From positions 32,178,001-32,242,000 of the forward strand of contig OZ024747.1 of NCBI GenBank assembly GCA_964016885.1: a stretch of 64,000 bases of DNA. The letters run 5' to 3'. The position numbers were made by a program, and so were the translations under genes. A model generated the notes under the pieces. The model saw only the letters and a program-made list of their open reading frames with translations. It searched no databases and had not been told where the DNA came from. Positions 3,437 through 56,727 of this stretch are shown one piece after another (the first letter of the stretch is position 1; every line of letters begins with the position of its first letter). Origin of the DNA: Eledone cirrhosa. Taxonomy: Eukaryota.

Positions 3437-3540
<104 letters not shown>

Positions 3541-3713
3541 AAATGTTTATTATAAACATACAGAATATTTTCGAATATTCTATGTCTATATTCACATATA
3601 TATCGCTATTTCAGAGCATTTATTCCAATTTCTAATTTCTGCCGGACCGGCAACCGCTCTTTCAAACCAGTTCCTGTACACAGCTAAGTATTCTATAAGT
3701 CTCTAGCTGTGTC

Positions 3714-3802
3714 ATTCTCGATAAAAGCACTGGATATGTAGTCCTGATGATTTCTAACGAGAATGAAACGCGTAGATTACTTCCCTTGCTTTTATCGAGA
3801 AT
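3714..3802 (+). ncRNA. Type-I hammerhead ribozyme, copy 1
   Basis: Stem I GTAGTC/GATTAC plus distal 16-bp ATTCTCGATAAAAGCA/TGCTTTTATCGAGAAT; CTGATGA 3744-3750; stem II TTCT-AACG-AGAA; GAAA 3765-3768; palindromic stem III ACGCGT; GUA site ending 3774. Confidence 0.9.
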
Positions 3803-4023
3803 CTAATTGTAATACGTGACGTATTCTATTCTATAGCGATTAGGTCTTCAAAATGTTTATTATAAACATACAGAATATTTTCGAATATTCTATGTCTATA
3901 TTCACATATATATCGCTATTTCAGAGCATTTATTCCAATTTCTAATTTCTGCCGGACCGGCAACCGCTCTTTCAAACCAGTTCCTGTACACAGCTAAGTA
4001 TTCTATAAGTCTCTAGCTGTGTC

Positions 4024-4112
4024 ATTCTCGATAAAAGCACTGGATATGTAGTCCTGATGATTTCTAACGAGAATGAAACGCGTAGATTACTTCCCTTGCT
4101 TTTATCGAGAAT
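4024..4112 (+). ncRNA. Hammerhead ribozyme, copy 2
   Basis: Same as copy 1, offset +310. Confidence 0.9.
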
Positions 4113-4333
4113 CTAATTGTAATACGTGACGTATTCTATTCTATAGCGATTAGGTCTTCAAAATGTTTATTATAAACATACAGAATATTTTCGAATATTC
4201 TATGTCTATATTCACATATATATCGCTATTTCAGAGCATTTATTCCAATTTCTAATTTCTGCCGGACCGGCAACCGCTCTTTCAAACCAGTTCCTGTACA
4301 CAGCTAAGTATTCTATAAGTCTCTAGCTGTGTC

Positions 4334-4422
4334 ATTCTCGATAAAAGCACTGGATATGTAGTCCTGATGATTTCTAACGAGAATGAAACGCGTAGATTAC
4401 TTCCCTTGCTTTTATCGAGAAT
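4334..4422 (+). ncRNA. Hammerhead ribozyme, copy 3
   Basis: Same as copy 1, offset +620. Confidence 0.9.
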
Positions 4423-4643
4423 CTAATTGTAATACGTGACGTATTCTATTCTATAGCGATTAGGTCTTCAAAATGTTTATTATAAACATACAGAATATTT
4501 TCGAATATTCTATGTCTATATTCACATATATATCGCTATTTCAGAGCATTTATTCCAATTTCTAATTTCTGCCGGACCGGCAACCGCTCTTTCAAACCAG
4601 TTCCTGTACACAGCTAAGTATTCTATAAGTCTCTAGCTGTGTC

Positions 4644-4732
4644 ATTCTCGATAAAAGCACTGGATATGTAGTCCTGATGATTTCTAACGAGAATGAAACG
4701 CGTAGATTACTTCCCTTGCTTTTATCGAGAAT
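4644..4732 (+). ncRNA. Hammerhead ribozyme, copy 4
   Basis: Same as copy 1, offset +930. Confidence 0.9.
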
Positions 4733-4886
4733 CTAATTGTAATACGTGACGTATTCTATTCTATAGCGATTAGGTCTTCAAAATGTTTATTATAAACATA
4801 CAGAATATTTTCGAATATTCTATGTCTATATTCACATATATATCGCTATTTCAGAGCATTTATTCCAATATAAAAGATATTTTACT

Positions 4887-6479: not shown

Positions 6480-7119
6480 AACAAATAACGAAACGAAATT
6501 AAATTTCGTTTCGTTTGTAACTCACTTTTGTATGACTGACGCTTAAACAATTAAGTTAAAAATGTACATCCACATATGTATACTGAAATACTAGTATGCA
6601 TATGAATACACACACGTATACATATGTAGATGTACCGAGTTTTTCACTGGTCACTTTACTGTGAGTGTCCAGCTATTCTGTATGTAAACACACAGACAAA
6701 CCGGTTTTTAGAGTCATACTGGTTTTTGAGGAAACACCTTTCCTCTATTCTCCAGAAAGCCAGACAATGAATATTGCCCACTACTAATTTTCATAGAAAA
6801 AGCATATAACGATATGTGCTTTTACGATTCTCTAGAAAGGCCGGAAGATAGGTAAATATTGCTGATGAGATGTAACAACATCGAAACTAGTTCAATATTC
6901 CTTGTCTGGCTTTCTGGAGAATAGAGGAAAGGTGTTTCCTTAAAAACCAGTATGACTCTAAAAACCGGTTTGTCTGTGTGTTTACATACAGAATAGCTGG
7001 ACACTCACAGTAAAGTGACCAGTGAAAAACTCGGTACATCTACATATGTATACGTGTGTGTATTCATATGCATACTAGTATTTCAGTATACATATGTGGA
7101 TGTACATTTTTAACTTAAT
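6480..7119. mobile_element. Non-coding HHR element in head-to-head arrangement (inverted arms ~6550-6776 / 6893-7119)
   Basis: ~227-bp inverted repeat with few mismatches; terminus resembles the 15398 element (GAAACGAAAT..CTCACT..CTTAAA). Confidence 0.8.
6855..6899 (+). ncRNA. Canonical minimal type-I hammerhead ribozyme
   Basis: AATATTG-CTGATGA-GATGT-AACA-ACATC-GAAAC-TA-GTT/CAATATT: perfect stems I and II, palindromic ACTAGT stem III, cleavage predicted after 6892. Confidence 0.92.
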
Positions 7120-7126
7120 CGTATAT

Positions 7127-22725: not shown

Positions 22726-23020
22726 GGAGGCACATGGCTTAGTGGTTAGAGCATTGGGCTTGCAATCGAAAGGTTGTGAGTTCAATTCTCAGACCAGGTG
22801 ATGTGTTGTTTCCTTGAGCTTTATTTCACATTGCTCCAGTTTACTCAGCTGTAGAAATGGACGTGGAGGTGCCATGGCAAAAAAGCACCCAGCACTCACT
22901 GTAAATGAGGTTGGTGTTAGGAAGGGCATCCAGCTGTAGAAATCAAGCCAGAATCAGTTCCCGTCCCACCCTTGTAAGCAGGGAAAAGCGGACGTAAAAT
23001 GATGATGATATGATGATGAT
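22726..23020 (+). mobile_element. tRNA-derived SINE with RTE-type 3' tail
   Basis: A-box TGGCTTAGTGG, B-box GAGTTCAATTC; tail AAAAGCGGACGTAAAATGATGATG shared with RTE LINEs. Confidence 0.85.
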
Positions 23021-30959: not shown

Positions 30960-33490
30960 ATAATGTCTGTTTACAATTGTTTCACTACTCCATATAATGT
31001 TTCTGGCTCAAATGATTATAGATCATAATTGATCTGGTTCAGTTGAAAATAATTAACTTAGGTACAATTAGAGCAGCTCCTCGGAACTTCAAAAGGAATA
31101 TAAATTAAAATAAAGAAAGAATGTTACATGAATGTAATGTTCCATATATTGGTAATTCACTATGGTGTCCTGGGTATATCTATTGTCTGCCATAGTCGAG
31201 CAGTATTCTTCTGTCGAGGCTGCATTGTGTGAGATCTGCCTATGGGTAACAAGATGGCCGCCAATGGACATATTTACTTTACTAATTAGAGGGTGGTTTC
31301 AGGGGAAGTATCTCATCGAGAAATTAGAAAATGTGGGTAGTTTATAGTTAAGAAGTGCTAATTTTTTAATTAAAAGACAATGTAAGGGAGGTAACTTATA
31401 ATTATCTAAGTTAGCTATAACTATTTAACTTATTAGCTATAAGTAAAAATGGGGCTAGATGACTATGTTGGGTCAAATATTCTGTTGCCGAAGGAATTAG
31501 CCCTTCGATGTTGACATCTAATAGTTACCTCCGTTCTATCGCTAATCGGTGGAGGTCGTGATAGAGTTATGTAATATGCTTCGGTAAGACAGAGGTCACA
31601 AGAATTTCTTCGTCCATTGAACGGTTGGGCCCTAGCCAAGATATCCCATGTTAGTGAGTGTTCAATGTTGGTTAATTTAAGGTTTTTAATGAGCCTAGCT
31701 AGAGATGTCGAACATCTGTTGTTAGGGTCTCGGAAGGAAAAAGAGTGCGCGTTATAGCGTATCTTAAAAGGGTTAGAGCTAGAACCGATATAGGAGCTGG
31801 TATGCGAAGCAGTTTTAACTGTGCACCTATAAACTATATTGGGTGTCAGGCAATGTCCATTTAGTGGGCATGCATTAGGGTAACGGCAGTTGCAGTTACT
31901 TCTGCGGTTAGTGAGAGTAGGGTTGTTTAAACTATGCGGTTGGTCTGTGCTAGAAGGATTAGATGGGGGAGGTGTTCTACTAGAGTAAGTATTGGTGTAA
32001 TGGCGTGGTGGTGTATTTGATGGGGGTGGTGTTACCGCGGTGTGGGAGTTATACTGTCTTAGTTTATGATGGTTACTGAATGCGATGTGGCTAGCTAGGT
32101 TAGGTGAGAATGAGATTTTAATCTTGTTTTTATTAAAGAGTTTGTAATATCTATGGTTGGGGCGGGTAATGTTTAGATCGGATAGAGAAGAAGCGTTTAG
32201 GGCTATTAGTGGCTAGATTAGATAAGAATGGGGGGGGGGGGTAAGCCAGGCGATATTTCAAGGCCTATTCCTTCTAGGGGTTCTAGTGGAGTTGGTAGGG
32301 GCCTTCATAGGGTTATTATTACCTGGGCATTTGTTATTTGTCATCCCATTGCTCATTCCTATTCTAGGGTTGATTTTTAGTTTGCTACTTGGAGTGGAAA
32401 GTAGGCCACTGCCACCATTAAGGTTCCCTGTATAAGTGCTGTTACTGTGTTAAGTTAGTGTTAAGTTTATTATGGTTGTGGTGAAGTGCTGTGTTATGGC
32501 ATTTAGGTATGTAGTAAATGGACTGTTCATAACCAGATTCAGAAAGAGCCTTATTATAATATGCCGCATGGTTTATAAATATCTTCTCATTTGCTGATAA
32601 CATGGAGATCATATACGAGATAGATTTGATTCCTGCTCTGATGACTGCCGGTGGGTGGTTAGAGTGTGGGATAATGTATGTAAGTATTTCACTTGGTTTA
32701 TGATAAGGGTAATATAGGTTAATGTTAAGATCTAGGGTAACGTCCAGGAAGTTTACTACTTTATGGTTCGGCTCGATGGTGATAGAGAGACCGTTATTTT
32801 TAAAGAATCTATGTAATTGTTTTTTGAGCAAGTCAATGCCTCGATTAGTGCAATTGTGGACTGCAAATAGGGCGTCGTCCCTATATATTCCGCCTTGCAA
32901 GGGTTGGATTTCAGCTCTGATGTTATGTAAATTCTCTGATGTTAGGTAAATTCCAACTAAATCGGTGATTTGCGCAGAGTCGCTTGAGCCCATAGTGATG
33001 TCAAAGTTGTCTGTTCTGTCTTTTCTAGTCCAGAGTGCTCCGTTGAATTCAATGATGGTCTGCCTAGCCATAAGTATGATGTCAATCTCATTATGTCAGA
33101 GTTGGTGCTGGTTATGTCAGAGTTGATGCTGGCTAGGGTTAATGCTTTGTTGAGCAGTGCCGGGGTTATTGAAGCGTAGTAGCTGTCAATGTCAAATTGG
33201 AGGAACCTCATAGATTTCTTAGACCTTAGATCGGAGAACCATCTAATGACTTGGCCGGTGTTGGACCACAACTTGTAGGTGATATCATCCCGTAGCCCAG
33301 GGATGATCTTATCAAGGATGTTCTTACTGATACGACCCAAGTCAGATGTGGTTGGGCTTATAAGTCTAATAGATGGGTTCTCTATAAAGTTTGGGTTGTG
33401 ATCCTTGAGAGAAACCTTGGGGTTGTAGGTACATAAGGGTGGGTCAATCTATCCAGATGCAAGTCCTTAACCTAAGCCTGGGCTTTTCGG
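30960..33490 (-). mobile_element. Degraded Hydra-clade-like PLE (RT + GIY-YIG + 3'UTR)
   Basis: QFDIDSYY, FDITMGS, GGIYRDD, NFLDVTL, SNHPP; CNCRYPNACPLNGHC near 31850-31900. Confidence 0.9.
30969..31087 (-). ncRNA. Variant hammerhead (CCGAGGA core, ~95-nt stem II)
   Basis: GTT-CCGAGGA-GCTGCTC...GAGTAGT-GAAAC-AATT-GTA/AAC. Confidence 0.65.
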
Positions 33491-33870
33491 TTAAGTTTAC
33501 CCGCCATATATATATAAATTTTGAGCAAGTGTTGGTTGTTTACCGACACCTCAGTTTGATGGTTGGTTTCTTTACTCAGGAGTAATGTAAAATAAGTAAG
33601 TCAAACTTGTTAAAGTTGGCACCGTTTGTTATAATTCTCTGCTATATACATTTCATTGACAGCTACTATTGGCCGTGACAAAATCAGGCAGTACGAGTTA
33701 ATGTAGAAAGAAACAGGTATACATGGTGTTGTAATGTGTTCCACTACTTGATATGGTCATATCCAACAATAGCCGTCACCGAAACACATATAGAGAATTA
33801 TTTTACATACATATATATATATATATACACATACAGATATACATAGACATATATATACACACACCCATAC

Positions 33871-37255: not shown

Positions 37256-37321
37256 ACTTTCTCATACATATATATATATACATACATATATACATACACA
37301 TATATATATATATATATATAT

Positions 37322-37967
37322 ATTTATTAAAATAACAGATTAAAGTTTAAGCAAAGAATCGCTGCTTTCACCCTTAACGGGATCTTCTGAAACTAACAAA
37401 GTCAATCTGTAAACGCAGAAGTGGATATTTCAAAAAACGTTGCAACCGGAGGAAGACAGGAAGACGATACTTTGGTTCGTGGAAACGTTCGCTGGCAGAG
37501 AACGGGAAAAAACGAATATAATACGTCATTAATAGGAGCGGTGAAAAACAATTACGCGCAAAGACAGAACCACGTTTATGGTATAAAAGAGGTCGTAGAC
37601 TAATGTTCTCTTAGGTGGTTCATAGAGACGTTCTCTGGCAATGAACGAAAAAAACGAAGATAATACGTCATATGTGGAGCGTGGAGAACAATAGCACGCA
37701 AAGACAAAACCACGTAAATGGTATAGCAGAAGTCGTAGACTAAAATTCTAACTAGGAGACCGAATGAATCTCCGCTACTGAGTTAAGAACAAAGTAAATA
37801 AATACAATACAGAAGTAATAGAAATAAATAAATACATACACGCAAACAAATACGTACATACACAAGCATACGCAAAACACTTACCATAGGTATACAAAAC
37901 CACGCCATATAAATATGTGTGTGTGTGTATGCGTGTATACAAATAAATAAATAATTATATAAACGTA
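37322..37967 (-). repeat. Inverted pLTR of the adjacent PLE
   Basis: Reverse complement of ~39332-39980. Confidence 0.88.
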
Positions 37968-37979
37968 TAATCTCTCTAT

Positions 37980-40070
37980 ACAGGTTGAGGCCAATCTCTC
38001 GGTCGTTAATTACCTCAACGTTACCCTCAATTTATTGAATGGGTTGTATTACCCGTATAGAAAGCCGAATGATACGCTTAATTACATAAGTAAGCATTCC
38101 AACCATGCTGCCAGCATAACCAAGAACCTGGTAAGAAACGTTTCGTTGAGGCTTTCCCGTCTTTCCACCAACGAGCGTATTTTCAACGACCATTCCACTT
38201 ATTACAATGAAGCTCTTGCTCGAAGTGGATTTGTCGATAAGGTAGCATATACAGAGTACGAAAATAGACCTAGAAGAAATAGATCCCGTCGCATTTGTTG
38301 GTATAACCCACCATATAATATGGAGGTGGCCACACCATTAGCTAAGATCTTTCTTTCCCTTATTACGAAGCATTTTCCCCCTACACATAGTAACATTTTT
38401 AATAGAAGTACTATTAAAATTTCTTACTCTACGACTCCTAACCTTGCACATAACATCACAGCTTCAAATTTAGCTAAAGTACCTAGCCGTAGGAACACGT
38501 GCTAACTGTAATTGTAGGAAGTACTAACTGTAATTGTAGGAATCGGGTTGATTGCCCCCTATCCGGGAAGTGCCTCTCTAGTAACATTGTCTATAAATGT
38601 AAGGTTGTAACACCCACTTCCCGTAGGGCCTACATAGGGTTAACCGCCAATAGATTCAAGCAGCGTCTTTACATGCATACCCATTCTTTTCGTTACCCTC
38701 TATGAAGGAATATGACGTCACTTTCAGCTTATATCTGGAGTTTAAAAGATAACCACACCCAATATAAGTTACACTGGGAGATCCTAGCTAGGGCTAGATC
38801 GTATAACGGAAATAAAAGACCATGTGACCTCTACGCCGCTGAGGCCCTGGAAATACTCTACGCCACAGACCACATCTTAAACAAAAAAACTGAGGCAATT
38901 TCGGCTTGTAAACATAAATTGCACAAAACTTTCCTGTATTACAGCCCCACGTTATACCCTAACGGATAGTACGATCTATACGTGGATATTTTACGTCTTG
39001 ATGTGGGAGCTAAGTATATGTTTGTTTATACCATTACTTATTTGCATAGGTAAGTATATATTACCCGTATGTTTTGTGAAGGTACGTATACCTTCTCGTA
39101 CGTATATTTGATTGTTTATGTTATGGCGTATAATTTTATATTTTCTGGTACATATGGTTTGGCCTTGTGTATACGGGAGTTTTGAGTCTGTGTGAGTATG
39201 CTGGTTCGTACGTATGTAGGGTGTGTGTATATGTGTACTTCATGTTTTGGTTGACTTACGTCGCCGAACATTCGTGTATTTACATGTAGGTATGTGTGTG
39301 CGCTTGTTATATACGTATTTATTTATTTATATACGTTTATATAATTATTTATTTATTTGTATACACGCATACACACACACACATACTTATCTGTGCGTGG
39401 TTTTGTATACTTATGGTAAGTGTTTTGTGTATGCTTGTGTATCTACGTATTTGTTTGCGTGTATGTATTTATTTATTTCTATTACTTCTGTATTGTATTT
39501 ATTTACTTTGTTCTTAACTCTGTAGCGGAGATTCATTCGGTCTCCTAGTTAGAATTTTAGTCTACGACTTCTGCTATACCATTTACGTGGTTTTGTCTTT
39601 GCGTGCTATTGTTCTCCACGCTCCACATATGACGTATTATCTTCGTTTTTTTCGTTCATTGCCAGAGAACGTCTCTATGAACCACCTAAGAGAACATTAG
39701 TCTACGACCTCTTTTATACCATAAATGTGGTTCTGTCTTTGCGCGTAATTGTTTTTCACCGCTCCTATTAATGACGTATTATATTCGTTTTTTCCCATTC
39801 TGTGCCAGCGAACGTTTCCACGAACCAAAGTATTGTCTTCCTGTCTTCCTCCGGTTGCAACGTTTTTTGAAATATCCACTTCTGCGTTTACAGGTTGACT
39901 TTGTTAGTTTCAGAAGATCCCGTTAAGGGTGAAAGCAGCGATTCTTTGCTTAAACTTTAATCTGTTATTTTAATAAATATTTGCTCTACGGTTCTTATAT
40001 ATTTGATATATATTTATCCTAATCGAGCCCTCTTTGGATTTTAGTCTTCAAATTTATTATTATTACTATA
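37980..40070 (+). mobile_element. 5'-truncated Hydra-clade-like PLE (RT thumb + GIY-YIG, frameshifted) with 3' pLTR
   Basis: YPYRKPN, WYNPPY, IKISYS, CNCRNRVDCPLSGKC, AYIG, SACKHK. Confidence 0.9.
39906..39956 (+). ncRNA. Variant hammerhead (CAGAAGA core); minus-strand copies at 37344-37394, 42496-42546 and 43068-43118 (degenerate)
   Basis: AGTTT-CAGAAGA-TCCC-GTTAA-GGGT-GAAAGCA-GCGATTCTT-TGCTT/AAACT. Confidence 0.6.
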
Positions 40071-40174: not shown

Positions 40175-40602
40175 TAAACGGAATAGAAAATGCTGACAAA
40201 TTGTTCACAGTTGAAAAATGGTTTAATTAGGAATAAAAGAGTATTAGTGATTGTATGGGTTAGTATTCAGTTGTGGTTTTAAGTTTTTAAGTTTTTACCG
40301 GTTGCGCATTTCTAAATGCTTTTCAAAAATAATTTTGAGATAGAGTGTCCGTGCTGTTTGCTCTGATCAGAGCAAACAGCACGGACACTCTATCTCAAAA
40401 TTATTTTTGAAAAGCATTTAGAAATGCGCAACCGGTAAAAACTTTAAAACTTAAAACCACAACTGAATACTAACCCATACAATCACTAATACTCTTTTAT
40501 TCCTAATTAAACCATTTTTCAACTGTGAACAATTTGTCAGCATTTTCTATTCCGTTTACCAATATATAATAACTTGTGTGTTACACCTCTATTCTTTTAA
40601 CT
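40170..40602. repeat. Spacer-less ~395-bp palindrome centred on TGATCA (40364-40369)
   Basis: Arms 40170-40366 / 40367-40563, one mismatch seen; sequence matches 1537-1783. Confidence 0.92.
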
Positions 40603-50422: not shown

Positions 50423-50950
50423 TATAAATCAGGAAAGAAGGTTTACATGGTTTGCTATACAAAAAAGTTTTTAATCACATAGCTTACATTTGTTTCACTG
50501 AACTGGCATGTCTAGAGATCGCTATCCGCCTAATTTTGCGTCACTCGATCGCCAATACAGAATTATAACCAGTCAGATCTTCGGAGCATGCGAGAATGAA
50601 GAAAATACACAGGCAAGAAAATAAAAGAAAATATGGAGTAGTTATGGCATTCAATTAGAACAATAAACAACAACAATTATTACAACAATGCTATCAATAA
50701 ACTATTTAAGGAGACCCTGACATTACTTAGGTGGGGGGTATATAATGTATCTAATGTTACGGCGTGAAAACCAGCTGTCATAAGGCAAAAAGTATCGTAG
50801 TGTGTATCAATTTTAAATTATAAAGATAAGCTAGTTTTTACAGTCTTTCTCTTCATCTTCAACCGTATACATGAGTGGGACCACTGTCAAAGCTCAATAG
50901 TTGTAGAGTTAATACAGAGGTTAACGAATTAATATACGCATATATCTACG

Positions 50951-50992
<42 letters not shown>

Positions 50993-51316
50993 AATACATA
51001 TACACATATATGTGTACATAGACACATACATACACACTAATATACACTCGTACAAAAATATACATACATGCAAAGAGAAAAGCGTGCTAATTGTAATATG
51101 GCAAAAAGAAGGTAAAGTAACATTGTAGTAGTGAAATGAGAAGATCTAGGATCAAATGATTGCAGCAGCTGAGAAGGAGTAAGATTGTTGGTAGATGAGG
51201 TATTTACAGACTATTGTGTGGTATAGACTTGTGAAGGAAATAGTATACTTAATGAATATATATTTTTTTGTGGGTAGTAGGTATCCTAATTTAAAGCTAT
51301 GTTATGTTGGTTCGAT

Positions 51317-53518
51317 TCACGGAGGTTTGAATCTTATGAATTTAGTGGCTATTCTATGCCTGCAGAAGATAGATCTTTCTAACTTATTATTAAGTAGTCT
51401 TTTAACATTTCTAAGGATATACAATAGCTCAAGATCACACAGCCCGCAATAGGACATACCTGTACTATAGGTTTTAGCAGCCGACAACTTCGACCAGTTG
51501 ATAGTGTAGCTAGCGTTGCTGTCCTTCAATTCCCATATTTTTCTGGCGAGGGTGGTGGAACCCATAAGAGCTCGGTTTTTCATCGAGTGCCTGTGCACAT
51601 ACCATCTTTTCTTAAAAGAACCCGCGGTGGATCCTATGTAATTCCAAGTGGAGTTACCCGAGATGACAGTGCACATGTACACCAGGCTCGAATCGAGACA
51701 TCTATTCGCCAATGGGCACCTATCTGGGAGGTGACAGTTGCAGTTTGAGGCGCTATTATGTGCAGCTTTTACATTCCTATTTAGTACCCTGTTATAAGTG
51801 GGTTGTGATATATGCCCAATGGGGTTTTGCTGCTGCGCGTTTGTATGCGCTTGTGGTTGTGATGTTGTGATGAGTTTGTGCTTATGTATAGGTGCAATTG
51901 ATTTACTTGAGATATTTCTGCGGTTGATCTTGCGTATGTGTGATTCTATGTTAGCTGCTGTTGAAAAAGAGAGTTTTATAGTAGATCTATTGAGTAGTTT
52001 GTGATATCTATGCGAGATAGGGAAGTGTTTATCTATTAGTTTAAAGAATATAGAGGGCAGTCTAGTTTTTATAGAGGAGTTGAATATTGGGTTGAACCAT
52101 AGGTATTTCCTTTGTCTGTTTCTTCTATTGTTTCTAGGGTTTACGTTATTAGTGTTTTGGCCGTTTACTCTAGGTGTTACATGTCTAACCCTATGTCTAG
52201 TCAAGCTATTCTTATTATTATGTGAGCGGTTGGAGTAGAAATTACTAGGATTGTTTATGTTGTCCTTATTCACTATATACTGTAGTTTATCTTTATGACC
52301 GGCCCTACTTAATGCTGCATTATAATAGTCAGCATGCTCGTTAAAGATTTCTAGGTTTGAGGATAGGCGGGATATTCGGAGGGATATACTACGTGCTATG
52401 GATTTAATTATGGATTTGGGGTGATTTGAGTTGTAACTAATGTAGGCAAGATTTTCATTATTTTTGTGGAAAGGTTCTATTAATCCAGTATTTAGATTTA
52501 GAGTTACATCTAGAAAATTTACCTTCTTATGGTTTAGTTCGTAGGTAATACTTAGGCCTAGTTTTTTGAAGAATATTCTAATATTTTTCCTTAGTCTTTC
52601 CATGCTCTGGTTGTTTAGGTTCCTAGCTATAAGTAACGTGTCGTCCCTATAAATTCCTCCTTGGAGGTTACTGAATTCCTTATGTAGGTTGTGTGCTATG
52701 AATAGCCCCACGATATCTGTAATTTGCGCAGAATCATTTGAACCCATTGTAATATCGAAGCTATTTATTCTATCCTTTCTTACCCAGTAGTTATTTTCAA
52801 ATTTTACGATAGTCCTTCTAGCCGCTATTATTATTTCAATTTCATCATGGGTAAGATCAGAGTTATTTTGGGCAAATATAAGCGCCTTATCTAGGGTAGC
52901 TGGGGATATGGATGCATAATAGTCGTCTATATCAAATTGTATGAAGTTACACGTATCCCTATTTTGTATTTTATTGAACCATTTAATTGCCTCGTTAGTG
53001 TTGCCCCATAGATTGATTTCTAGTTTACCCTTTATTTGTGCGATTACCCTATCTAGAATGTTTTTGCTAATTTTACCTATGTCTGACTTGGATGGGCATA
53101 TTAATCTAATGGTAGGATTAGTTTCAAAGTTATTTTTGTGATCTTTCAGGTTAAATGTAGGGTTGCACGGGGTAAGCGGTTCGGTCCTATCTGAAATTCC
53201 GAGTTTGTTAACTATCTTGAGGCCCTCCATGTTTATGCTGGTGAGTGTAGATTCATTTGTTTTTTTATATTTTTTATGTAGTTCACGCTGAATAAAGTTA
53301 TTGTATGTGTTAATGTCCATAGAGTATACGTTTGATGTTTTGTCTGCTTTTACTATGATACCGTTAGTGTCTTTTAGTTTTTTAAGTAATGTGTTTAAGT
53401 CATTTTGCAATTTGTTGTGATTTGTTCTTTTTTTAAATTTAGTTTCACTTATCATGTTCATAAGGTCCAGCTCGAAGGCATCGAGTGCGGGGTTGTTTGG
53501 CGGGTTTTTGATGAACAT
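51317..53518 (-). CDS. PLE reverse transcriptase + GIY-YIG endonuclease (Hydra-clade-like), uninterrupted, 5'-truncated
   Basis: KADKT, LKDHK, QFDIDDYY, TMGS, IYRDD, NFLDVTL, CxCx5Cx5C, VYMC..NYIG, CGLC, FCRH. Confidence 0.92.
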   Translation of the reverse strand: MFIKNPPNNPALDAFELDLMNMISETKFKKRTNHNKLQNDLNTLLKKLKDTNGIIVKADKTSNVYSMDINTYNNFIQRELHKKYKKTNESTLTSINMEGLKIVNKLGISDRTEPLTPCNPTFNLKDHKNNFETNPTIRLICPSKSDIGKISKNILDRVIAQIKGKLEINLWGNTNEAIKWFNKIQNRDTCNFIQFDIDDYYASISPATLDKALIFAQNNSDLTHDEIEIIIAARRTIVKFENNYWVRKDRINSFDITMGSNDSAQITDIVGLFIAHNLHKEFSNLQGGIYRDDTLLIARNLNNQSMERLRKNIRIFFKKLGLSITYELNHKKVNFLDVTLNLNTGLIEPFHKNNENLAYISYNSNHPKSIIKSIARSISLRISRLSSNLEIFNEHADYYNAALSRAGHKDKLQYIVNKDNINNPSNFYSNRSHNNKNSLTRHRVRHVTPRVNGQNTNNVNPRNNRRNRQRKYLWFNPIFNSSIKTRLPSIFFKLIDKHFPISHRYHKLLNRSTIKLSFSTAANIESHIRKINRRNISSKSIAPIHKHKLITTSQPQAHTNAQQQNPIGHISQPTYNRVLNRNVKAAHNSASNCNCHLPDRCPLANRCLDSSLVYMCTVISGNSTWNYIGSTAGSFKKRWYVHRHSMKNRALMGSTTLARKIWELKDSNASYTINWSKLSAAKTYSTGMSYCGLCDLELLYILRNVKRLLNNKLERSIFCRHRIATKFIRFKPP

Positions 53519-55655
53519 GATAAGTGAAACTAAATTTAAAAAAAGAACAAATCACAACAAATTGCAAAATGACTTAAACACATTACTTAAAAAACTAAAA
53601 GACACTAACGGTATCATAGTAAAAGCAGACAAAACATCAAACGTATACTCTATGGACATTAACACATACAATAACTTTATTCAGCGTGAACTACATAAAA
53701 AATATAAAAAAACAAATGAATCTACACTCACCAGCATAAACATGGAGGGCCTCAAGATAGTTAACAAACTCGGAATTTCAGATAGGACCGAACCGCTTAC
53801 CCCGTGCAACCCTACATTTAACCTGAAAGATCACAAAAATAACTTTGAAACTAATCCTACCATTAGATTAATATGCCCATCCAAGTCAGACATAGGTAAA
53901 ATTAGCAAAAACATTCTAGATAGGGTAATCGCACAAATAAAGGGTAAACTAGAAATCAATCTATGGGGCAACACTAACGAGGCAATTAAATGGTTCAATA
54001 AAATACAAAATAGGGATACGTGTAACTTCATACAATTTGATATAGACGACTATTATGCATCCATATCCCCAGCTACCCTAGATAAGGCGCTTATATTTGC
54101 CCAAAATAACTCTGATCTTACCCATGATGAAATTGAAATAATAATAGCGGCTAGAAGGACTATCGTAAAATTTGAAAATAACTACTGGGTAAGAAAGGAT
54201 AGAATAAATAGCTTCGATATTACAATGGGTTCAAATGATTCTGCGCAAATTACAGATATCGTGGGGCTATTCATAGCACACAACCTACATAAGGAATTCA
54301 GTAACCTCCAAGGAGGAATTTATAGGGACGACACGTTACTTATAGCTAGGAACCTAAACAACCAGAGCATGGAAAGACTAAGGAAAAATATTAGAATATT
54401 CTTCAAAAAACTAGGCCTAAGTATTACCTACGAACTAAACCATAAGAAGGTAAATTTTCTAGATGTAACTCTAAATCTAAATACTGGATTAATAGAACCT
54501 TTCCACAAAAATAATGAAAATCTTGCCTACATTAGTTACAACTCAAATCACCCCAAATCCATAATTAAATCCATAGCACGTAGTATATCCCTCCGAATAT
54601 CCCGCCTATCCTCAAACCTAGAAATCTTTAACGAGCATGCTGACTATTATAATGCAGCATTAAGTAGGGCCGGTCATAAAGATAAACTACAGTATATAGT
54701 GAATAAGGACAACATAAACAATCCTAGTAATTTCTACTCCAACCGCTCACATAATAATAAGAATAGCTTGACTAGACATAGGGTTAGACATGTAACACCT
54801 AGAGTAAACGGCCAAAACACTAATAACGTAAACCCTAGAAACAATAGAAGAAACAGACAAAGGAAATACCTATGGTTCAACCCAATATTCAACTCCTCTA
54901 TAAAAACTAGACTGCCCTCTATATTCTTTAAACTAATAGATAAACACTTCCCTATCTCGCATAGATATCACAAACTACTCAATAGATCTACTATAAAACT
55001 CTCTTTTTCAACAGCAGCTAACATAGAATCACACATACGCAAGATCAACCGCAGAAATATCTCAAGTAAATCAATTGCACCTATACATAAGCACAAACTC
55101 ATCACAACATCACAACCACAAGCGCATACAAACGCGCAGCAGCAAAACCCCATTGGGCATATATCACAACCCACTTATAACAGGGTACTAAATAGGAATG
55201 TAAAAGCTGCACATAATAGCGCCTCAAACTGCAACTGTCACCTCCCAGATAGGTGCCCATTGGCGAATAGATGTCTCGATTCGAGCCTGGTGTACATGTG
55301 CACTGTCATCTCGGGTAACTCCACTTGGAATTACATAGGATCCACCGCGGGTTCTTTTAAGAAAAGATGGTATGTGCACAGGCACTCGATGAAAAACCGA
55401 GCTCTTATGGGTTCCACCACCCTCGCCAGAAAAATATGGGAATTGAAGGACAGCAACGCTAGCTACACTATCAACTGGTCGAAGTTGTCGGCTGCTAAAA
55501 CCTATAGTACAGGTATGTCCTATTGCGGGCTGTGTGATCTTGAGCTATTGTATATCCTTAGAAATGTTAAAAGACTACTTAATAATAAGTTAGAAAGATC
55601 TATCTTCTGCAGGCATAGAATAGCCACTAAATTCATAAGATTCAAACCTCCGTGA
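53454..55655 (+). CDS. Second, inverted copy of the same PLE ORF (true homology starts at 53511)
   Basis: Same 713 aa from MNMISET; first 19-20 aa are antisense spacer. Confidence 0.92.
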   Translation: MFIRSSSKASSAGLFGGFLMNMISETKFKKRTNHNKLQNDLNTLLKKLKDTNGIIVKADKTSNVYSMDINTYNNFIQRELHKKYKKTNESTLTSINMEGLKIVNKLGISDRTEPLTPCNPTFNLKDHKNNFETNPTIRLICPSKSDIGKISKNILDRVIAQIKGKLEINLWGNTNEAIKWFNKIQNRDTCNFIQFDIDDYYASISPATLDKALIFAQNNSDLTHDEIEIIIAARRTIVKFENNYWVRKDRINSFDITMGSNDSAQITDIVGLFIAHNLHKEFSNLQGGIYRDDTLLIARNLNNQSMERLRKNIRIFFKKLGLSITYELNHKKVNFLDVTLNLNTGLIEPFHKNNENLAYISYNSNHPKSIIKSIARSISLRISRLSSNLEIFNEHADYYNAALSRAGHKDKLQYIVNKDNINNPSNFYSNRSHNNKNSLTRHRVRHVTPRVNGQNTNNVNPRNNRRNRQRKYLWFNPIFNSSIKTRLPSIFFKLIDKHFPISHRYHKLLNRSTIKLSFSTAANIESHIRKINRRNISSKSIAPIHKHKLITTSQPQAHTNAQQQNPIGHISQPTYNRVLNRNVKAAHNSASNCNCHLPDRCPLANRCLDSSLVYMCTVISGNSTWNYIGSTAGSFKKRWYVHRHSMKNRALMGSTTLARKIWELKDSNASYTINWSKLSAAKTYSTGMSYCGLCDLELLYILRNVKRLLNNKLERSIFCRHRIATKFIRFKPP

Positions 55656-55985
55656 ATCGAACCAACATAACATAGCTTTAAATTAGGATACCTACTACCC
55701 ACAAAAAAATATATATTCATTAAGTATACTATTTCCTTCACAAGTCTATACCACACAATAGTCTGTAAATACCTCATCTACCAACAATCTTACTCCTTTT
55801 CAGCTGCTGCAATCATTTGATCCTAGATCTTCTCATTTCACTACTACAATGTTACTTTACCTTCTTTTTGCCATATTACAATTAGCACGCTTTTCTCTTT
55901 GCATGTATGTATATTTTTGTACGAGTGTATATTAGTGTGTATGTATGTGTCTATGTACACATATATGTGTATATGTATTTATATT

Positions 55986-56025
<40 letters not shown>

Positions 56026-56384
56026 CGTAGATATATGCGTATATTAATTCGTTAACCTCTGTATTAACTCTACAACTATTGAGCTTTGACAGTGGTCCCA
56101 CTCATGTATACGGTTGAAGATGAAGAGAAAGACTGTAAAAACTAGCTTATCTTTATAATTTAAAATTGATACACACTACGATACTTTTTGCCTTATGACA
56201 GCTGGTTTTCACGCCGTAACATTAGATACATTATATACCCCCCACCTAAGTAATGTCAGGGTCTCCTTAAATAGTTTATTGATAGCATTGTTGTAATAAT
56301 TGTTGTTGTTTATTGTTCTAATTGAATGCCATAACTACTCCATATTTTCTTTTATTTTCTTGCCTGTGTATTTTCTTCATTCTC

Positions 56385-56499
56385 GCATGCTCCGAAGATC
56401 TGACTGGTTATAATTCTGTATTGGCGATCGAGTGACGCAAAATTAGGCGGATAGCGATCTCTAGACATGCCAGTTCAGTGAAACAAATGTAAGCTATGT
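56385..56499 (+). ncRNA. Variant hammerhead (CCGAAGA core, ~80-nt stem II); mirror copy at 50477-50591 minus
   Basis: CATGCT-CCGAAGA-TCTGACTGG...CCAGTTCAGT-GAAAC-AAAT-GTA/AGCTATG. Confidence 0.7.
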
Positions 56500-56727
56500 G
56501 ATTAAAAACTTTTTTGTATAGCAAACCATGTAAACCTTCTTTCCTGGTTTATTATTACTCCAAGTGTTTACAACATAGGAATTACAGCATACCCGCAGCA
56601 TCACTATGAAAACGCCTTGTTGAGTCAAACCAAGCCAAGCGTTAATATCATCCACTACCTGGAATACCATAACTGGACTTCACCTAAGTGGACTGCATTT
56701 AACTATTATTTGTTAATCCGTATATAC

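What the first reader, a model, noticed from the sequence alone, without database searches (positions are those of the whole stretch)
56385..56499. PLE hammerheads with U4C core and very long stem II
Seen: two distinct Hydra-like PLEs end in HHR folds with a CCGANGA core instead of CUGANGA (56392 CCGAAGA; 31084 minus CCGAGGA), 80-95 nt in stem II, and GAAACAA(A/T)TGTA. The stems are unrelated in sequence but pair in both. The 56385 copy sits in a very young element with an intact ORF, so the variant is unlikely to be decay. Inference: a non-canonical HHR subtype that standard motif searches would miss, and the stem II insert may be a separate functional module.
Basis: partly seen in the sequence, partly recalled or inferred. 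Interest (0 to 1): 0.7.

Follow-up and report, generated by a model that had tools for sequence, protein, structure and literature searches.

The report
Long-armed, altered-core hammerheads in Hydra retrotransposons
Thousands of copies of a known kind of animal jumping gene carry a self-cutting-RNA motif with one normally fixed letter changed (U to C) and an arm three to four times the usual length; both traits are inherited rather than decay, they vary independently of each other, and the motif likely cuts only slowly and in pairs, which is untested.

Summary
Confirmed. Both sites are type I hammerhead folds in the pseudo-LTRs of two Hydra-clade Penelope-like elements, with a CCGANGA core and an 81 or 94 nt stem II. 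Rfam misses them. The pattern occurs 5,022 times in the genome against 15 in the control. C4 is inherited: 37 of 37 family-A and 33 of 36 family-B copies carry it. The family-A arm keeps covarying helices across about 15 subfamilies.

Corrections. (1) C4 and the long arm are not one subtype. Long-armed relatives split 2,737 CCG, 1,734 CTG and 101 CCA, so U4 templates were also amplified, and a sister family has C4 with a 20 nt arm. (2) The window ORF is 5'-truncated by an inversion. (3) U4C is known from viroid RNAs and occurs in 2 of 47 outside Hydra-type hammerheads.

No copy end maps to the cut site (0 of 30 5' ends, 0 of 37 3' ends). Best reading: a damped, dimer-dependent ribozyme whose arm is likely a protein-docking structure. 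Cleavage is untested. The scan reported long-armed hammerheads before, in this genome and others. New variant of a known kind.

The parts
50424..56725 (.). Family-A Hydra-clade PLE insertion: inverted duplicate of a 5'-truncated copy. The left arm ends 61 nt and the right arm 234 nt past the cut site, in (TA)n.
   Evidence: 2 mismatches and a few microsatellite indels between arms
53511..55655 (+). RT plus GIY-YIG ORF, codons 95-808 of the full frame (3 of 714 residues differ from L062); DKT, CNCHLPDRC, CGLC and CRH present; N-terminus with RWK missing
56383..56391 (+). Stem I 5' strand; pairs with 56492-56501 around one bulged U
   Evidence: column pair 13-118 covaries
56392..56398 (+). Core C3-C4-G5-A6-A7-G8-A9 (U4C)
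   Evidence: 37 of 37 family copies that cover it
56399..56479 (+). 81 nt stem II: U-U at the base; base helix 56400-56407/56470-56478; 5' bulge of about 8 nt; near-fixed GUAUU 56418-56422 opposite UAGAC 56462-56466; middle helix 56422-56430/56455-56463; 5x5 loop AGUGA/GAUAG; apical CGC/GCG helix
56480..56491 (+). G12-A13-A14, stem III ACAAAUGU (imperfect form of the palindrome ACAAUUGU), A17; predicted cut after 56491
   Evidence: self-duplex -0.7 against -6.4 kcal/mol
56501..56552 (+). AUUAAA/AAUAAA and a conserved 55 nt stretch ending near the first 3' end (+61)
50475..50593 (-). Twin of hammerhead A in the left arm (C3 50584; predicted cut after 50485)
30961..31092 (-). Hammerhead of family B: CCGAGGA at 31084 (family CCGAUGA), 94 nt stem II 31077-30984, ACAAUUGU palindrome, predicted cut after 30972
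31463..33500 (-). Broken RT/GIY-YIG ORF of family B (several frames; CNCRYPNAC linker, CxxC and CxH motifs)

Best explanation
These are the pseudo-LTR type I hammerhead folds of Hydra-clade Penelope-like retrotransposons, and they likely work as slow ribozymes that cut only in pairs and probably with protein help. Shown: the fold, the inherited C4, the near-palindromic stem III, the covarying arm in the A group, and that inserted copies neither begin nor end at the cut site. Inferred steps: (1) two hammerheads of a tandem transcript pair through ACAAUUGU to build helix III; (2) C4, probably protonated, keeps the U-turn of the core but lowers the rate, and in family A an imperfect palindrome lowers it further; (3) slow cutting lets much RNA reach reverse transcription uncut, since copying starts 61 or 234 nt beyond the site, while a fraction is cut, perhaps late, and perhaps circularised; (4) the long arm lies outside the core, is selected for shape with fixed internal loops, and most likely docks a protein, such as the element's own, that gates folding or marks the RNA. 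C4 and the arm are separate traits.
For: Core: across 28 long-arm family representatives stem III is a perfect palindrome in 26 and residue 17 is A, C or U (partly fixed by my search patterns). G5-to-A copies number 101 against 4,471 with G5, so G5 loss was not amplified while position 4 switched between C and U. C4 is present in three deep branches (A group, B, a 20 nt-arm family) of one clade (96/87 support), although it is a CpG that decays to U. Arm: 88.9% of cells paired against 81.7% shuffled (0 of 500) and 29-42% when slid; 14 of 25 pairs with two-sided changes; RNAalifold finds two of the helices unaided; a tree-aware null gives p<0.05 for 8 of 15 pairs tested, one at 3e-5. Ends: 29 at +234 and 8 at +58 to +61, of 37 visible 3' ends; 0 of 30 full-length 5' ends at the cut and 22 of 30 run through it. 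Literature: PLE hammerheads cleave weakly and as dimers (PMC4209133); a lizard PLE hammerhead cleaves only with its protein and is not needed for insertion in vitro (PMC11167929); viroid U4C lowers in vitro activity but suffices in vivo (PMC3088659); protonated C can replace U in a U-turn (PMC4105743).
Against: No cleavage data and no RNA data. One paper reports the viroid U4C as not affecting cleavage (PMC9608096), so the damping may be small. U4 templates gave over a third of the A-group copies, so C4 is not required. A circular, re-ligated template would give the same copy ends. Only one pair survives correction in the tree-aware test and none passes an all-pairs scan (best E about 0.33). 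No pseudoknot or partner for the arm was found, and a sister family amplified with a 20 nt arm. In the dimer co-folding test the intermolecular helix III formed for two families with the perfect palindrome but not for family A. Protein docking has no direct evidence.
Confidence: 0.55

Rival explanations
1. The ribozyme is ordinary in use. U4C is nearly neutral, and the long arm is a tolerated hairpin, perhaps born of the inverted duplications these elements make, kept only so that it stays paired and out of the way.
For: C4 and U4 templates both amplified; short-armed sister family; arms of different families unalignable; arm identity between distant subfamilies only 0.49-0.65 against 0.40-0.55 upstream; viroid CCGA reported to cleave normally.
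Against: GUAWU/UAGAC and the 5x5 loop are near-invariant while neighbouring helix pairs exchange; arm length stays 78-83 nt across the A group; C4 persists or recurs over deep branches at a mutable CpG.
Confidence: 0.25
2. The motif no longer cuts. It is a ribozyme-shaped fold kept as a binding site for the retrotransposon protein.
For: No copy end at the cut site; several weakening features in the young family A (C4, imperfect stem III); another young family has A at position 4; cleavage is dispensable for insertion in vitro in a lizard PLE.
Against: G5 loss was not amplified; a second young family has the compensated U3-A8 pair; the stem III palindrome is kept, with a different palindrome in other families; U-U at the base of stem II is normal for Hydra hammerheads (23 of 47).
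Confidence: 0.1
3. The arm hides a splice signal. The fixed U.UAG|AC would be a 3' splice site of a retained intron, so that splicing removes the 5' half of the ribozyme, or shortens the arm to normal size, in the mRNA while the unspliced RNA is copied.
For: YAG lies 11-19 nt before GAAA in the A group, B, and four other long-arm groups (f4/5, f12, f20/21, f24); a PLE intron ends at helix I in Drosophila virilis (PMC4209133; PMC2377424); a donor-like GGUAAGAA lies 41 nt upstream in one non-coding family.
Confidence: 0.1

Closest known systems
Hammerheads of Hydra-clade PLEs (Craig et al. 2021, PMC8557442; passages, section 11, supplement Files S1 and S2 read)
   Same: Type I fold in the pLTR, near-palindromic short stem III, frequent U-U at the base of stem II, (TA)n targets, RWK/DKT/CxCX5C protein motifs.
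   Different: All 26 Hydra rows of File S2 have CUGANGA (required by their descriptor) and loop II of at most 10 nt; here C4 and 78-98 nt arms. The longest listed arm, about 54 nt, is in a spikemoss PLE-X element.
Minimal PLE hammerheads (Cervera and de la Pena 2014, PMC4209133; parts 1-2 of 4 read, supplements not seen)
   Same: Dimer design, weak activity, natural core variant U3-A8, which is also found here in another young family.
   Different: Helix II of 6-8 bp; no U4C or long arm in the parts read.
Viroid U4C hammerheads (Ambros and Flores 1998, not held; known through passages of PMC3088659 and PMC9608096)
   Same: CCGA core that still cleaves.
   Different: Rare sequence variants of a viroid population; here the state of whole retrotransposon lineages in thousands of copies.
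Poseidon PLE of Anolis (Frangieh et al. 2024, PMC11167929; passages read)
   Same: Two internal start sites of reverse transcription downstream of the hammerhead; uncut RNA used as template.
   Different: Canonical short hammerhead overlapping the ORF start; a tail of 30-40 nt in Penelope against about 173 nt here.

Membership tests
Type I hammerhead ribozyme | Three helices around the core, stem I open | tested here: met
Type I hammerhead ribozyme | Core C3 U4 G5 A6 N7 G8 A9 / G12 A13 A14 / A15.1-U16.1 / H17 | tested here: not met
   Position 4 is C; all others match. U4C has a functional precedent in viroids, so this lowers 'canonical', not 'works like'.
Type I hammerhead ribozyme | Match to an Rfam hammerhead model | tested here: not met
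   No hammerhead hit up to E 10
Type I hammerhead ribozyme | Loop I-loop II tertiary contact or pseudoknot | tested here: inconclusive
   No covarying helix between arm and flanks in 25 sequences; non-canonical contacts are not visible to this test
Type I hammerhead ribozyme | Site-specific self-cleavage | not testable with these tools
   No assay possible; no RNA holder listed
Dimeric PLE hammerhead | Short palindromic helix III | tested here: met
   Perfect in B and in 26 of 28 families; two central A-A mismatches in family A
Hydra clade of PLEs | RWK, DKT, CxCX5C linker, CxxC and CxH, C-terminal GIY-YIG-like domain | tested here: met
   RWK and DKT in the full frame; CNCHLPDRC in the window copy; CNCRYPNAC in B. 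Pfam gave no hit.
Hydra clade of PLEs | Insertion into (TA)n, partial tandem and inverted copies | tested here: met
   (3,538 bp unit)
Hydra clade of PLEs | Placement with the published Hydra sequences in an RT tree | not tested
   The published sequences could not be loaded; trees used unnamed homologs only
SECIS element | In-frame UGA in the ORF and a 9-11 bp helix above the GA quartet (helix length recalled) | tested here: not met
   808-codon frame open without internal UGA; only 3 bp above the AGUGA/GAUAG loop
Spliceosomal intron of PLEs | Conserved donor and acceptor, spliced RNA | tested here: inconclusive
   Acceptor-like motif present, no conserved donor; no RNA reads

The most novel reading that the evidence does not exclude
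This retrotransposon lineage has turned its hammerhead into a regulated switch. A protonated-C U-turn sets a low, pH-sensitive basal rate, and the long arm is a natural aptamer for the element's own RT/endonuclease protein, or a splice-controlled insert, that decides whether a transcript is cut or copied. The independent C4, A4 and U3-A8 cores in the genome's young families would be repeated selection for damped cleavage.
Probability: 0.2. Interest if true: 0.72.

Novelty: new variant of a known kind. Interest (0 to 1): 0.47.

Why it matters
What the hammerhead does for Penelope-like elements is an open question. This genome offers a natural two-by-two set (C4 or U4, long or short arm) in families that all amplified, so the role of cleavage rate can be tested with natural sequences. 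It also shows that searches fixed on CUGANGA and short stems miss thousands of motifs, which bears on reports of hammerhead-less PLE families. It remains a variant of a known ribozyme in a known element, and the scan has already noted the long arm several times.

Tried and rejected
RNA evidence: no RNA holder listed; three runs laid as contigs cannot show ends, and the run of a second organism did not cover position 4. Pfam: no hits for four ORF pieces. SECIS rejected (no in-frame UGA, helix too short). Pseudoknot between arm and flanks: not found. Assembly artefact for the palindrome: unlikely, because the arms end at different sites (+61, +234), differ at two bases, and other loci show the same design. 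'All U4 copies are CpG decay': rejected, CTG 1,734 against CCA 101; this assumes strand-symmetric decay. 'C4 needs the long arm': rejected. Long arms as one clade: not resolved (p-AU 0.32). Two key papers were not held (Ambros and Flores 1998; Lunse et al.); the latter describes many PLE hammerhead variants and could hold a U4C case. Rows dropped: five singleton regex hits judged chance (families 16, 25, 28, 29, 33), and a 79 nt deletion copy of B (family 15) was also left out of the table. In one search row L325 proved to be a neighbouring element and row L338 is a long, unsure branch. Literature searches found no paper with U4C or an arm of this length in a PLE; supplements of Cervera 2014 were not seen.

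Full report
What is there. At 56392 the window reads CCGAAGA, then 81 nt, then GAAACAAAUGUA. The flanks UCGCAUGCU and AGCUAUGUGA close stem I, and the predicted cut is after 56491. A twin lies at 50584 on the minus strand. At 31084 minus there is CCGAGGA, 94 nt, GAAACAAUUGUA. Rfam finds no hammerhead at either site up to E 10. The genome (G000, 3.0 Gb) holds 5,022 matches to CCGANGA-N70-110-GAAACAAWTGTH against 15 for the reversed control, and 3,981 against 3 for the CTGATGA form.

The elements. Element A spans 50424-56725 as an inverted duplicate. Its frame is open from stop to stop for 744 codons, but homology to the full 808-codon frame of L061/L062 starts only at codon 95, so the N-terminus with the RWK motif is lost. 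The family is young: the 40 best of 1,521 candidate places are 99-100% identical, and tandem units of 3,538 bp with whole ORFs exist. The motifs RWK, DKT, CxCX5C, CxxC and CxH and the (TA)n targets match the Hydra clade as defined in section 11 of PMC8557442. Element B is an older, broken copy of a second Hydra family, 31-33% identical to A in the C-terminal part.

Is C4 decay? No. It is in 37 of 37 family-A copies that cover the core (these were best matches to the query, so biased) and in 33 of 36 family-B copies, whose family core is CCGAUGA. C4-G5 is a CpG, so neutral decay should give about equal numbers of CTG and CCA. Among long-armed A-group motifs the counts are CCG 2,737, CTG 1,734 and CCA 101. 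So most CTG copies come from templates that had U4, while loss of G5 was not amplified. Position 4 is a pyrimidine that has switched among active templates.

C4 and the arm are separable. A short-arm search gave 9,957 matches against 44 controls; 61 of the first 100 listed have CCG, nearly all with a 20 nt arm (counted by eye). In the ORF tree this 20 nt family, family B, a U4 family with a 90 nt arm and the A group form one clade (96/87), so C4 is in three deep branches. Whether the long arm arose once or twice is not resolved (p-AU 0.32). An ORF-anchored search returned two more young Hydra families among its 30 loci. My hammerhead finder missed both, but by eye one has CAGAAGA with a short arm and the other UUGAGAA with a 54 nt arm. 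Outside this genome, 48 of 78 Hydra-type metagenome loci held a hammerhead. Of 47 distinct ones, 43 had CUGANGA, 2 CCGANGA and 2 UUGANAA, with arms of 10-25 nt (whose pattern allowed 10-26 nt; one search allowed up to about 160 nt and gave only two long second-best candidates, in loci that also had a short one). U-U at the base of stem II was in 23 of 47, so it is normal for the clade.

The arm. In 25 copies from about 15 A-group subfamilies, three helices keep pairing while changing sequence: 88.9% paired against 81.7% shuffled (0 of 500) and 29-42% when slid; 14 of 25 pairs have two-sided changes. RNAalifold finds the middle and apical helices unaided, and a blind helix scan ranks the middle and base helices first. 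A tree-aware null is more modest: 8 of 15 pairs at p<0.05, one at 3e-5, and a best all-pairs E of about 0.33. GUAWU opposite UAGAC and a 5x5 purine-rich loop are nearly fixed. The A-type arm profile matches no arm of B or of the other families, and I found no pseudoknot to the flanks.

Copy ends. Of 42 family-A hammerhead copies, 29 end 234 nt and 8 end 58-61 nt past the cut site, 4 run into the next ORF and 1 is cut by the locus edge (the query favoured the longer end). This matches the two-start-site tail described for a lizard PLE (PMC11167929, passages). Of 30 copies chosen by the ORF's 5' end, none begins at the cut, 22 run through it, and 8 begin at scattered places downstream. Templates therefore cross the site uncut, or re-ligated as a circle; these data cannot tell which.

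Mechanism. Stem III is a palindrome in 26 of 28 families; in family A it has two central mismatches (self-duplex -0.7 against -6.4 kcal/mol). PLE hammerheads of this design cleave weakly and as dimers (PMC4209133, parts 1-2; review PMC6765202, passages), and one needs its protein. U4 forms the U-turn of the core, and a protonated C can replace U in such turns (PMC4105743, listing and passages). Viroid U4C is reported as slower in vitro but adequate in vivo (PMC3088659, passages) or as unaffected (PMC9608096, passages). I therefore read the motif as a damped dimer ribozyme that lets uncut RNA reach reverse transcription, with the arm as a shape-selected docking site (confidence 0.55; steps after the fold are inferred). 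Rivals: a neutral variant with a tolerated hairpin (0.25), a dead fold kept for binding (0.1), and a splice acceptor inside the arm (0.1). For the last, YAG recurs 11-19 nt before GAAA in most long-arm groups, but no donor is conserved in the A group or B.

Novelty. Searches found no paper with U4C or an 80-95 nt arm in a PLE; File S2 of PMC8557442 lists only CUGANGA Hydra motifs. Lunse et al. and Ambros and Flores were not held, and the supplements of Cervera 2014 were not seen; they may bear on this. I also read part 1 of 5 of a 2026 retrozyme preprint and passages of PMC7229834, PMC2377424 and a viroid preprint; none changed the reading. The scan's own notes already report long-armed Hydra hammerheads in this and other genomes. 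What this follow-up adds is the lineage-level C4, its independence from the arm, and the end mapping. Verdict: real, a new variant of a known kind, interest 0.47.

Noticed in passing
L296, about 930-1000 nt after the stop codon (also L300, L292): A young Hydra family with an open 713-codon frame has a hammerhead-like end with core CAGAAGA (A at position 4), a short stem II and a longer stem III.
   Followed up: partly
L299, about 1,130-1,230 nt after the stop codon (also L309, L301): A young Hydra family with an open 784-codon frame has a U3-A8 core (UUGAGAA) and a 54 nt stem II.
   Followed up: partly
window 56501-56552 and A-group relatives: AAUAAA or AUUAAA follows stem I, and the 55 nt after the cut are better conserved between subfamilies (0.60-0.91) than the arm; the stretch looks like a polyadenylation signal with a U-rich tract, or a priming signal at the +61 end.
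   Followed up: partly
L066, L084, L142, L148, L149: A family with CUGAUGA, a 93-97 nt branched arm (z about -6), copies 0.7-1 kb apart, no Hydra ORF linked, and a donor-like GGUAAGAA 41 nt before the core: retrozyme-like, possibly with an intron.
   Followed up: partly
L107:2668 plus strand; L152 minus strand: Another family has a CCGACGA or CCGAGGA core with a 60 nt arm and a different stem III palindrome, ACGCGCGU.
   Followed up: no
L261-L290: 6 of the 22 full-length copies that cross the cut site stop within 126 nt upstream of it, inside or just before the hammerhead; reverse transcription may pause or invert at this structure (post hoc, small numbers).
   Followed up: partly
window 6844-6915 +: A canonical-core short hammerhead (Rfam HH9, 36.5 bits, below the cut-off of 52) between 233 nt inverted arms at 6544-6776 and 6893-7125.
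   Followed up: no
window 3540-4869: A tandem array with a 310 bp period whose compared 300 nt copies are 100% identical.
   Followed up: no
window 22735-22792 +: Partial tRNA-like match (31.2 bits), perhaps a SINE head.
   Followed up: no
window 37320-37905 / 39395-39980 and 40326-40407: A 586 nt inverted repeat at 98% and a palindrome of 82 nt.
   Followed up: no
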